This document shows, one piece after another, positions 22,366 to 25,404 of a DNA stretch of 64,000 bases. A program made the position numbers and the translations under genes. Positions within the stretch are counted from its first letter, which is position 1. Every line of letters begins with the position of its first letter. A model generated the notes under the pieces. It searched no databases and was not told where the DNA came from. It saw only the letters and a program-made list of their open reading frames with translations. The stretch comes from the human T2T-CHM13v2.0 reference genome, Homo sapiens. The DNA lies in assembly GCF_009914755.1 (NCBI RefSeq), contig NC_060925.1. One strand, given 5' to 3'.

Positions 22366-23699
22366 TCAAAAAACAAAAAAAAAAGTTTTTTTAGTTGAGA
22401 TGAAGTCTTGCTATGTTGCCCACGCTGGTGTCAAACTCCTGAGCTCAAGCAATTCTCCCACCATGGCCTCCCAAAGTGCTGGGATTACAAGTGTGAGCTA
22501 CAACATCCAGCTCAGGTATCTATGAAAATAAACCATGCTATGATGTAGGCTGGAAGAAGCTTAGAGTTACAGATGTAAGATAGGCCATTTTAAAGAAAGG
22601 ACTCCAAAAACTCCATTGTTTGTTACCAATCTTTCACTTTCTTTTTTTTTTTGAGATGGAGTCTCACTCTGTGGTCCAGGCTGAAGTGCAATGAATGGTG
22701 CAATCTGGGCTCACTGCAACCTTTGCCTCTCAGGTTCAAGTGATTCTCCTGCCTCAGCCTCCTGAGTAGCTGGAATTACAGACGTGCATCACCACACTCG
22801 GCTAATTTTTTTGTATTTTAAGTAGAGATGGGGTTTCACCATGTTGGCCAGGCTGGTCTCGAACTTCAGACCTCAGGTGATCTGCCTGCATTGGCCTCCC
22901 AAAGTGCCAGGATTACAGGCATGAGCCACGGCATCCGGCCTCCAATCTTTCATTTTAAAGCAAAAATTGCTAGTTCAATTTGCCACTAATCAAATTAATA
23001 TTCGATTCCAATTTGGCTTCATACTTTAAGGTTTTATTAATAAAATTACAAGCACTATAAATACTAAAACTAAATATTCTTCTAATATTTGAGTCCATAA
23101 AACTCCTGAGACTTAAACTAAATGAATTTATGTCTTTATTTAGCCCAACGGGGATGTAAAAATACCAGGCAGAGCACATTACAGAAAACCCATGATGAGT
23201 AGTAACGTAAAATGTGTGTTTCTGCTGCCCAAATGGAAAGGCCTGCAGCTGAAATGGTTAAGGGTTCGGTGGAAAAATAACTGTGTAACTATGTTCCCAG
23301 TATTCCAATTTTATAATTCAAATTTTCTAAATCGCTCTTAAGCTGGCAGTAGAATGAGATCTGGCCAGTTCCAAACACTGAACTTTTAAATATTTAATGA
23401 GTGATATTTTTAATATTTCATCACATTCAATTTGCATCATAAAACATTTACAGAAACAAGTGACCGATGTTTCTGTCATCATCACAAAAAAATGGCAAAG
23501 ACAAGAGACTACTGGCTGCAAGTCTAGGAACGTGTCACCTATGTCGGAAGTCTATACCTGACTCATTTCATCACATTCTAGGAGGTTTTAAAAAACAAAC
23601 TAAACTGCTTCTCCTGCCTCCCTTGGCCTCAGCCATGGCGAGTAGCCGTGGCAGCGAATCCAAATGCGGTGCGGGAGACCATGGACAGGATGCTGAATA

Positions 23700-23848
23700 A
23701 ACTGTGTGTTGTGCACCTGCATCTTGACTTTGATCCATCACATGAGGTGTGGAATTTTCCACTGTGGTGTCATGTCGGTGCTTAAAAAGTTTCGGATTTT
23801 GGAGCATTTCACATTTCAGGTTTTGGGATTAAGAGTATCCAACCTGTA
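23700..23848 (+). mobile_element. Tigger4/MER46 (Zombi)-type DNA transposon fragment inside the MZT1 retrocopy
   Basis: ttttggagcatttc...ttttgggattaagagtatccaacctgta matches a Tigger4a/MER46 terminus. Only one end is present. Confidence 0.7.
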
Positions 23849-24231
23849 CTAATCACACATTCTGCTTGAGATTTCAAGAATTTAGAATGCTGGCTTAGAT
23901 ATGGAAACTCCTATTTGTGTACGGCTTTGTGAACAAGAAATTAACCCAGAAGCTTTATCATCAGTTATTAAGGAGCTTCGCAAGGCTACTGAAGCACTAA
24001 AGGCTGCTGAAAATATGACAAGCTGATTTTCTGGGGAAATTCTGATGAGATATGTCAAGCTCTGCAAGAGGATTTAAAGATTGCACTGTAGTCGAGAATG
24101 TACAATGATACTGAATGCAGCAGTGTAGAAAAATTTTCCTTTTTAAAAGAATTATAAAACCATAGCATTATAAATCAGTGGAAAGTGGCTTACAGACAGA
24201 ACTATCAGATGTGTTTACATCACATCTTATT

Positions 24232-24527
<296 letters not shown>

Positions 24528-25404
24528 TTATTCACTTTTTTTAACGGCTCTAATGCTTCCACATCGCCATGTTCATATTTATGTATTCTTTATTTATAGC
24601 TTTGATAGCTTTAATTTTCTAAGCAGTCTATCAGATGTGCACATCTGCTGTGCCTGTAGTGGAACCCATCAGTAGTAATGTGTAGTAGTTGTGACTTGTT
24701 GACATTTCCACTATAAATTTTAACTTTGAATTGTTTATGCATTATAACTGTGGATTTATATTGTATTGGGCTGAAAGCTGACACTATTTCAGCCACCATT
24801 GGTGAATTCTGATTTAGATTCATTATGTATGTCGGAATCTTGTTTTTTAAAATAAGAGCATGGAAAACATTTCTTGCAATCTGATCTTTAACAAAGAATA
24901 CTTAGTTTTTTAAACAGTTTGTTGGGCAGCTAATAATGTGAACCAGGTCATTTTTGTATTGAGTAAAAATTTAAACTTCTAGAAACTTAGATTTTAAAAG
25001 TAATGACAATGCTTAGGTTAGTATTATTTGCAATTCGAATCATTTACAGCTAATGAGAATGTTTTCTTAAAGTTTTATACCCTATAAATGGAGGCCTAAA
25101 AAAATGTGTAAAATGAAACATAGCAAACATGCCAAACTCCTGTTTACTTTTCTTACATAAAAGTAATTTGAGTCCTTGACTAATAAATCTTGAATGGTTA
25201 TTTAATAAGTTATTAGGTAAGTAATGTGTTTCAAAAAAAAACTAAACTTTGAATGTATTAATTTAAAACTATGCAAAAGCAAAGCTGGCAATCAAACCTT
25301 CTATAAGTGCAGGCTGTAGCTAGGCACACACCTATCATTTCAGGATATGACTCATTTTTTAGGGTTATGGTAGATTTCAGTCATTAGAAATTATTTGATT
25401 TTTA

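What the first reader, a model, noticed from the sequence alone, without database searches (positions are those of the whole stretch)
23688..23859. MZT1 retrocopy preserves a transposon-derived, stop-containing cassette at an exon junction: a fossil poison exon
Seen: the MZT1 frame stops at ...GAG ACC ATG GAC A (23687) and resumes at TT CTG CTT GAG (23860), splitting the Val codon. Between them lie 172 nt (not a multiple of 3) with an in-frame TAA at 23783, made mostly of a one-ended Tigger4/MER46 fragment plus short flanks. It has no second terminal repeat, no TA duplication at the boundaries and no GT..AG ends, so it looks like neither a later insertion nor a retained intron. From recall, the break corresponds to the MZT1 exon 1/exon 2 boundary. 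Inference: L1 machinery copied a minor MZT1 isoform that included an exonised DNA transposon. The AluS-type insertion in the 3'UTR suggests the event is old, so the retrocopy records a long-standing unproductive (NMD-type) splicing switch in a core gamma-tubulin complex gene.
Basis: partly seen in the sequence, partly recalled or inferred. Interest (0 to 1): 0.8.

Follow-up and report, generated by a model that had tools for sequence, protein, structure and literature searches.

The report
Retrocopy preserving an alternative MZT1 exon
The extra 172 bases inside the MZT1P1 pseudogene are an alternative, stop-containing exon of the parent MZT1 gene, built from an old DNA transposon and frozen when an alternatively spliced mRNA was copied back into the genome; a neat example of a known phenomenon.

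Summary
The 172 nt at 23688-23859 have their best genome-wide match (89%, others 84% or less) inside intron 1 of MZT1 on chromosome 13. The match is in sense orientation, is also 172 nt with no gaps, and is bounded to the base by a pyrimidine tract plus CAG upstream and GTAGGC downstream. Exon 1 ends and exon 2 begins exactly at the pseudogene's two junctions.

The cassette is the last 159 nt of a roughly 350-nt TA-flanked inverted-repeat element, then TA, then 11 nt of unique flank. Two changes specific to this copy made it an exon with a stop: G>A created the acceptor AG, and CAA>TAA created the stop. The pseudogene shares the stop, so that change came before retroposition.

Including the cassette gives a 58-aa ORF whose stop lies 74 nt before the next junction, which makes it NMD-eligible.

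MZT1P1 is a classic L1-type retrocopy with a target-site duplication. Two other MZT1 retrocopies carry the canonical junction.

The cassette body has evolved neutrally in the parent: 11 parent-only against 6 pseudogene-only changes. A regulated "switch" is therefore not shown. The principle is known, and this example was not found in print.

The parts
23597..23606 (+). 5' copy of the retrocopy's target-site duplication (AAACTAAACT), sitting in a TTTTAAAAAACAAAC context
   Evidence: AAACTAAACT occurs in 23501-25400 only at 23597 and 25239. Sequence seen.
23608..23687 (+). Part derived from MZT1 exon 1: 5'UTR, the ATG at 23636 and the N-terminal codons. It has a 26-nt deletion in the GCG (poly-Ala) run. 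Its last base is A where the parent has G (CpG position).
   Evidence: 76 of 85 aligned bases identical to C13:71949154-71949049, with a 26-column internal gap.
23688..23859 (+). 172-nt cassette, an alternative exon from MZT1 intron 1 (parent C13:71945049-71944878)
   Evidence: 89% identity, the best of 40 scored genome hits; 172 against 172 nt with no gaps, 150 of 172 identical, 20 transitions and 2 transversions. AG and GT lie immediately outside it in the parent.
23688..23846 (+). Transposon-derived part of the cassette: the last 159 nt of a roughly 350-nt TA-flanked element with terminal inverted repeats, ending ...CAACCTG
   Evidence: 2318 first-look candidates in the genome, 40 scored, other copies 73-80% identical to the parent copy; the two ends of the parent copy align 27 of 35 as inverted repeats, and the commonest match limits (9 of 28 each) include a TA on each side; 141 of 159 identical between pseudogene and parent, 15 shared derived positions.
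23847..23859 (+). TA (the element's target-site dinucleotide at its chr13 site) plus 11 nt of unique MZT1-intron flank that runs up to the donor site
   Evidence: parent TA CTGATCATATG|gtaggc against pseudogene TA CTAATCACACA|TTCTG, 7 of 11 flank bases identical, all 4 differences transitions.
23783..23785 (+). In-frame TAA, at the same codon as in the parent cassette
   Evidence: the first base is T in both pseudogene and parent, but C in 26 of 27 other family copies and T in 0 of 27. CAA>TAA therefore arose in this copy before retroposition.
23860..24002 (+). Part derived from MZT1 exon 2 (3-nt deletion; TAG at 23883 replaces a Leu codon)
   Evidence: 139 of 144 aligned bases identical to C13:71940643-71940498. 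fix the exon limits.
24003..24232 (+). Part derived from MZT1 exon 3, first stretch (end of the CDS and proximal 3'UTR)
   Evidence: 226 of 238 aligned bases identical to the parent.
24233..24526 (-). Later Alu insertion (T-run first, so the element lies on the minus strand), flanked by a CTTATTC duplication at 24226-24232 and 24527-24533
   Evidence: the parent has CTTATTC once and no insert. One search gives the positions; the stretch matches many Alu-like copies in the 24-kb MZT1 region at 70-87%.
24527..25238 (+). Rest of the MZT1 3'UTR, ending in a 9-A run. RefSeq's MZT1P1 model, which stops at 24226, does not include it.
   Evidence: 711 of 797 aligned bases identical to C13:71931667-71930930.
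25239..25248 (+). 3' copy of the target-site duplication (AAACTAAACT). Its leading As cannot be separated from the poly-A remnant.

Best explanation
MZT1P1 is an L1-made processed pseudogene copied from an alternatively spliced MZT1 mRNA with the structure exon 1 - 172-nt cassette - exon 2 - exon 3.

The cassette lies about 4 kb into the 8.4-kb intron 1 of MZT1. It consists of the 3' 159 nt of an old non-autonomous TA-flanked inverted-repeat (Tigger-type) element, then TA, then 11 nt of unique flank. The element supplied a ready-made pyrimidine tract. A G>A change in this copy made the acceptor AG, and the donor GT lies in the unique flank. A C>T change (CAA>TAA) and the length (172 = 3n+1) make inclusion unproductive. 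The result is a 58-aa ORF with a stop 74 nt upstream of the next exon junction, so the isoform should be an NMD target.

Shown: the origin of the insert, the splice-site dinucleotides, the shared stop and the retrocopy hallmarks. Inferred: the retroposition happened roughly 30-45 Myr ago; the isoform is degraded by NMD; and, most likely, it is low-level tolerated exonisation rather than a selected regulatory switch.
For: (1) In a whole-genome search with window:23600-24230, bases 89-256 of the query match C13:71944882-71945049 at 89%. That site lies between the exon-1 match and the exon-2 match. Every other copy among the 40 scored hits is 84% or less.
(2) The parent reads ...ttttggttttttccctcag|GGATGCTG...CATATG|gtaggc. 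The span is 172 nt, the same length as the insert, and the two align without gaps at 150 of 172.
(3) Parent exon 1 ends ...ATGGACG|gtgagt and exon 2 begins ...ttttttcag|TTCTGCTTGAG. These are the two pseudogene junctions exactly.
(4) Across the 159 transposon columns, measured against 28 other family copies, there are 15 shared derived positions, including the T of TAA (family C in 26 of 27, T in 0 of 27).
(5) At the acceptor, the family majority reads TTGG where the MZT1 copy reads TCAG. The A is present in 3 of 28 copies.
(6) From the parent sequence, the canonical ORF is 82 aa and the cassette-containing ORF is 58 aa. They share 26 N-terminal residues, and the stop ends 74 nt before the cassette/exon-2 junction.
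(7) Retrocopy hallmarks are present: all introns are absent, there is an A-run at the 3' end, and a 10-nt duplication AAACTAAACT sits at 23597 and 25239.
(8) As controls, the two other MZT1 retrocopies that span this junction (C7:140.54 Mb and C7:88.41 Mb) read GGAC(A/G)|(T/A)TCTGCTTG with no cassette. The cassette is therefore present in 1 of 3 junction-informative retrocopies.
Against: No RNA data, transcript annotation of the MZT1 locus or primate genomes could be consulted. Present-day inclusion, NMD sensitivity and the date are therefore unverified. The donor (ATG|GTAGGC) departs from the consensus at -2, +4 and +6; the consensus is recalled, and no scoring model was run. The last 11 nt (non-transposon flank) match at only 7 of 11. 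A single retrocopy is one sampled molecule and says little about how abundant the isoform was.
Confidence: 0.92

Rival explanations
1. The cassette is a selected, regulated poison exon that tunes MZT1 dosage through NMD and has been maintained since before the retroposition.
For: The stop and the frameshift predate the retrocopy. AG and GT are still intact in the parent today. One of 3 junction-informative retrocopies carries the cassette, which would be unexpected for a very rare, rapidly degraded isoform.
Against: The cassette body shows no constraint in the parent. There are 11 parent-only against 6 pseudogene-only changes in 159 columns. Total divergence is 12.8%, against 10.8% in the distal 3'UTR and 3.5-5% in exon 2 and the proximal part of exon 3. 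At about 5-7% change per site, survival of four splice-site bases is expected by chance (inference). No paper linking MZT1 to a poison, cryptic or NMD exon turned up (passages read).
Confidence: 0.1
2. The 172 nt entered the pseudogene after retroposition, either by transposition or as filler DNA captured at a double-strand break.
For: The sequence is mostly transposon, and ACA occurs on both sides (23685-23687 and 23857-23859), which looks like a 3-bp duplication.
Against: The fragment is one-ended and carries TA plus 11 nt of the chr13 flank. Its source lies in the parent gene's own intron 1, in sense orientation, and is cut exactly at AG and GT. It sits exactly at the exon 1/2 junction. The ACA repeat is explained by the parent's exon 1 ending ACG and the cassette ending ATG. 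At least 2318 family candidates exist genome-wide, so a random donor copy would fall in this 8.4-kb intron with odds of about 0.6% (my arithmetic from that lower-bound count).
Confidence: 0.02
3. The L1 reverse transcriptase switched template from the spliced MZT1 mRNA to MZT1 intron RNA or pre-mRNA and back, producing a chimaera with no cassette exon ever having been spliced.
For: Template switching by L1 reverse transcriptase is documented (established knowledge, recalled). The source is the same gene's intron.
Against: Two switches would each have to land, to the base, on an AG| and a |GT, and on the exon 1 and exon 2 ends. The pyrimidine tract plus CAG upstream makes spliceosomal use the simpler reading.
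Confidence: 0.02

Closest known systems
Processed pseudogenes as 'genomic fossils' of splice variants (Shemesh, Novik, Edelheit & Sorek, PNAS 2006)
   Same: A retrocopy preserves an alternative exon structure of its parent gene's mRNA, so an old splicing event can be read from DNA.
   Different: I saw only the title, in three reference lists. The paper itself is not held, so its content is recalled. Whether its lists include MZT1 could not be checked. Here the preserved exon is transposon-derived and carries a stop.
Exonisation of transposable elements giving NMD-targeted (unproductive) isoforms
   Same: An intronic element supplies a pyrimidine tract. A point mutation creates the AG, and inclusion brings in a premature stop.
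   Different: The element is a cut-and-paste DNA transposon relic rather than the usual antisense Alu. The donor site lies outside the element. A retrocopy gives the event a minimum age. The comparison rests on general knowledge; no specific paper was read for it.
Conserved poison exons of splicing-factor genes (the SRSF/TRA2 type)
   Same: A cassette exon with an in-frame stop more than 50 nt upstream of a downstream junction.
   Different: Those exons are ultraconserved and autoregulated (recalled). This cassette evolves at the neutral rate in the parent, and no regulation is shown.
Ordinary MZT1 retrocopies (C7:140.54 Mb, C7:88.41 Mb, C10:64.50 Mb)
   Same: Same parent and same L1-type origin.
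   Different: The two that span the exon 1/2 junction carry the canonical junction without the cassette. The C10 copy starts inside exon 2.

Membership tests
L1-mediated processed pseudogene (retrocopy) | Parent introns precisely absent | tested here: met
   The exon1/cassette, cassette/exon2 and exon2/exon3 joins coincide with the parent splice sites.
L1-mediated processed pseudogene (retrocopy) | 3' poly-A and flanking target-site duplication at an A/T-rich site | tested here: met
   AAACTAAACT occurs at 23597 and 25239. A 9-A run lies at the 3' end, of which 4 As are also in the parent, so the tail remnant is short. The 5' context is TTTTAAAAAAC.
L1-mediated processed pseudogene (retrocopy) | Lies away from the parent locus | tested here: met
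   The window is on C1 and the parent is on C13.
Cassette (alternative) exon of MZT1 | Lies in the intron between the two flanking exons, in sense orientation, bounded by AG and GT | tested here: met
   C13:71945049-71944878 lies inside intron 1 (71949048-71940644), with cag| before it and |gtaggc after it.
Cassette (alternative) exon of MZT1 | Transcript evidence for inclusion | tested here: inconclusive
   The retrocopy itself is one ancient transcript. No present-day RNA data or transcript annotation of the MZT1 locus was available. Literature searches found nothing.
Poison (NMD-coupled) exon | In-frame premature stop more than 50-55 nt upstream of a downstream exon junction | tested here: met
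   The stop ends 74 nt before the cassette/exon-2 junction, and a second junction lies 146 nt further on. The 50-55 nt rule is established knowledge.
Poison (NMD-coupled) exon | Isoform stabilised when NMD is blocked | not testable with these tools
   Needs RNA-seq after UPF1/SMG1/SMG6 inhibition.
Poison (NMD-coupled) exon | Evolutionary constraint or regulated inclusion | tested here: not met
   There are 11 parent-lineage against 6 pseudogene-lineage changes in 159 columns, so there is no sign of constraint on the exon body. Regulation was not testable.
Tc1/mariner-type (Tigger-like) non-autonomous DNA transposon | Terminal inverted repeats and TA target duplication | tested here: met
   The ends of the parent copy align 27 of 35 as inverted repeats, and both are flanked by TA. 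Among 28 other copies, the commonest match limits (9 of 28 each) include the TAs. The repeat finder itself did not report the terminal repeats.
Tc1/mariner-type (Tigger-like) non-autonomous DNA transposon | Assignment to the named family (Tigger4/MER46) | not testable with these tools
No repeat library was available.

The most novel reading that the evidence does not exclude
The transposon-derived cassette in MZT1 intron 1 is a working, primate-specific poison exon that sets the dosage of this small gamma-tubulin-complex subunit. It would have been abundant enough in the germline tens of millions of years ago to be retrocopied. MZT1P1 would then be a dated fossil of an unproductive-splicing circuit that is still active.
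Probability: 0.1. Interest if true: 0.55.

Novelty: new member of a known kind. Interest (0 to 1): 0.3.

Why it matters
The result gives a base-exact, dated record that a transposon-derived, stop-containing exon of MZT1 was already being spliced in the primate germline long ago.

It improves the annotation of MZT1P1 in two ways. The 172-nt "gap" is parent-derived exon sequence, not an intron or an insertion. The pseudogene also runs about 1 kb further than the RefSeq model, past an Alu.

It points to a specific exon (C13:71945049-71944878 in this assembly) to look for in RNA-seq with NMD blocked.

As a principle it is not new. Retrocopies are already used as fossils of splice variants, and transposon exonisation with NMD is common.

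Tried and rejected
- Later insertion was rejected; see the rival explanations.
- Retained intron was rejected, because only 172 of 8405 intron bases are present and they are bounded by AG and GT.
- The 3-bp ACA as a target-site duplication was rejected. It is explained by the parent's exon-1 and cassette ends.
- The Shemesh 2006 paper is not held.
- The repeat finder did not report the element's terminal repeats (one search was a strand error). A direct end-to-end alignment did show them.
- An Rfam scan of 23500-25400 found nothing at gathering score.
- The first ORF figures, were wrong because I set the exon-1 end one base short. In one search the exon-2 end was one base long. Both were corrected, and the alt-ORF numbers quoted come from those calls.
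- In one search the polarisation counts (12, 9 and 1 of 22) included four flank columns covered by only 1-3 copies. restricts the count to the 159 transposon columns with at least 10 copies covered.
- Literature: 'MZT1' with 'poison exon' gave 1 paper, a reference-list mention only. 'MZT1P1' gave 0 papers. 'MZT1' with 'nonsense-mediated' gave 8 papers, 7 listed. I read passages in three of them. They concern mouse Mzt1 exon-2 skipping, expression, or a GWAS locus, and none concerns this exon. 'MZT1' with 'cryptic exon' gave 3 papers, none relevant. Supplements were not opened, and exon lists there could mention it.
- No splice-site scoring model was available, so splice-site strength is described only against the recalled consensus.

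Full report
**What is in the window**

The MZT1-like sequence runs ...GAGACCATGGACA to 23687. A 172-nt insert follows (23688-23859, GGATGCTGAAT...CTAATCACACA), and the MZT1 sequence resumes with TTCTGCTTGAG at 23860. In the frame carried in from the exon-1 part there is a TAA at 23783-23785. The insert starts GG and ends CA. It contains a single transposon end (...CAACCTG, 23840-23846), followed by TA and 11 more bases.

**Where the 172 nt come from**

The assembly that holds the window can be searched. With window:23600-24230 as query (40 of 1473 first-look candidates scored), the MZT1 parent appears on the minus strand of C13:
- exon 3 at 71931660-71931892 (94%);
- exon 2 at 71940494-71940643 (94%);
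- the insert at 71944882-71945049 (89%).

Every other copy of the repeat scores 84% or less. A BLAST of the pseudogene region against 24 kb of the parent locus adds exon 1 at 71949154-71949050. The insert's source therefore lies inside intron 1, in sense orientation.

Read on the sense strand, the parent shows ...aattttggttttttccctcag|GGATGCTGAATGAAC...CTGATCATATG|gtaggcact. The stretch between the AG and the GT is 172 nt, the same length as the insert. The two align without a gap at 150 of 172 positions, with 20 transitions, 2 transversions and a K2P distance of 0.146.

Parent exon 1 ends ACCATGGACG|gtgagt and exon 2 begins ttttttcag|TTCTGCTTGAG. These are the two junctions of the pseudogene. 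Intron 1 is 8405 nt, with 3999 nt before the cassette and 4234 nt after it.

**Anatomy of the cassette**

A search with the parent's whole element (40 of 2318 candidates scored) shows a family of roughly 350-nt elements, 73-80% identical to the MZT1 copy.
- The two ends of the parent copy align as inverted repeats at 27 of 35 positions, and each is flanked by TA. Among 28 other copies, the commonest match limits (9 of 28 each) include those TAs. The automatic repeat finder did not report the terminal repeats.
- This fits a Tigger-type, TA-targeting cut-and-paste element.
- The cassette is the last 159 nt of the element (window 23688-23846), the TA (23847-23848), and 11 nt of unique intron (23849-23859) that run up to the donor.

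**How it became an exon with a stop**

I compared the parent and the pseudogene column by column with 28 other copies (L015-L043, leaving out L031, which is the window itself).
- The pyrimidine tract (TTTTTCCCT) belongs to the family. Where the family majority reads TTGG, the MZT1 copy reads TCAG; the A is found in 3 of 28 copies. A point change therefore made the acceptor.
- The first base of the TAA is T in both the parent and the pseudogene, but C in 26 of 27 other copies and T in none. CAA>TAA arose in this copy before the retrocopy was made.
- Over the 159 transposon columns, 126 are identical in all three. Fifteen are shared by pseudogene and parent against the family, 11 changed in the parent only, 6 in the pseudogene only, and 1 is unresolved. 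The 15 shared derived positions confirm that the two are sister copies.

**Consequence for the mRNA**

From the parent sequence, exon 1 + exon 2 + exon 3 give an 82-aa ORF. With the cassette the ORF is 58 aa, of which 26 residues are shared with the canonical protein. The stop ends 74 nt before the cassette/exon-2 junction, and another junction follows. By the 50-55-nt rule (established knowledge), such an mRNA is an NMD substrate. This is inferred, not shown.

**The retrocopy as a whole**

All introns are absent. Past an Alu-like insertion (24233-24526, flanked by CTTATTC at 24226 and 24527; the parent has that heptamer once), the 3'UTR continues to about 25238, with 711 of 797 bases identical to the parent. 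It ends in a 9-A run. AAACTAAACT occurs at 23597 and 25239 and nowhere else in 23501-25400. MZT1P1 is therefore a standard L1-type processed pseudogene, and it is about 1 kb longer than the RefSeq model.

**Other MZT1 retrocopies as controls**

A search with the exon 2-3 part (all 7 candidates scored) finds four further copies.
- C7:140.54 Mb reads ...GTGGACA|TTCTGCTTG, the canonical junction, with an Alu fragment 9 nt further on.
- C7:88.41 Mb reads ...CCATGGACG|ATCTGCTTGAG, also canonical.
- C10:64.50 Mb starts inside exon 2.
- C11:102.86 Mb holds exon 3 only.

One of three junction-informative retrocopies therefore carries the cassette.

**Age (inference)**

Divergence from the parent differs by segment:

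| Segment | Differences | Percent |
|---|---|---|
| Exon 2 | 5 of 144 | 3.5% |
| Proximal exon 3 | 12 of 238 | 5.0% |
| Distal 3'UTR | 86 of 797 | 10.8% |
| Cassette | 22 of 172 | 12.8% |

The pseudogene-lineage share in the cassette is 6 of 159, or 3.8%. Set against recalled human-lineage neutral divergences, this suggests roughly 30-45 Myr. Primate genomes were not available to check this.

**Switch or noise?**

The cassette body has changed in the parent at least as fast as in the dead copy (11 against 6). It is as diverged as the least-constrained part of the 3'UTR. At such rates, four intact splice-site bases are expected by chance. There is thus no sequence evidence for selection. The most likely reading is tolerated, low-level exonisation whose product NMD removes. 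A regulated dosage switch is not excluded (about 10%).

**What is known**

The idea that processed pseudogenes fossilise splice variants is in print (Shemesh et al. 2006). I saw only the title, in reference lists, because the paper is not held. I found no paper on this MZT1 exon or on MZT1P1:
- 'MZT1' with 'poison exon': 1 paper, a reference-list mention only;
- 'MZT1P1': 0 papers;
- 'MZT1' with 'nonsense-mediated': 8 papers, passages read in three, all unrelated;
- 'MZT1' with 'cryptic exon': 3 papers, none relevant.

Transcript annotation of the MZT1 locus was not available, so the exon may already be catalogued.

**Verdict**

The "switch" is unproven and somewhat disfavoured. This is a new, cleanly documented example of a known kind, of modest interest.

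Noticed in passing
window 24527-25248: The retrocopy continues for about 710 nt beyond the Alu, to an A-run and the 3' target-site duplication. RefSeq's MZT1P1 model stops at 24226, so it covers only part of the pseudogene.
   Followed up: yes
window 23650-23655 (exon-1 part): A 26-nt deletion in the GCG/poly-Ala run, relative to the parent, shifts the frame from the pseudogene's own ATG. TAG at 23883 and a 3-nt deletion in the exon-2 part also disable the copy.
   Followed up: partly
L004 (G000:C11:102857489-102860720), minus strand: An MZT1 copy holds only exon 3 and the 3'UTR. It starts exactly at the first base of exon 3, behind an unrelated ...ttctgtcacag. It carries a 5'-truncated Alu at the same 3'UTR site and in the same orientation as the Alu in MZT1P1, but with clearly different Alu sequence. 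These look like two independent insertions at one hotspot next to ACTTTTTTTAAC.
   Followed up: partly
L003 (C7:140.54 Mb), L044 (C7:88.41 Mb), L045 (C10:64.50 Mb): Three older MZT1 retrocopies, 72-83% identical to the parent mRNA. The two on C7 keep the canonical exon 1/2 junction. The C7:140.54 Mb copy has an Alu fragment inserted 9 nt into exon 2.
   Followed up: yes
window 23608-25248, against CLSTN1 (minus strand): The pseudogene lies inside an intron of CLSTN1, antisense to it, according to the hub's gene table. No consequence was examined.
   Followed up: no
parent locus G000:C13:71930001-71954000: MZT1's introns and flanks hold many Alu-like copies: more than nine separate matches to the window's Alu at 70-87%.
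   Followed up: no
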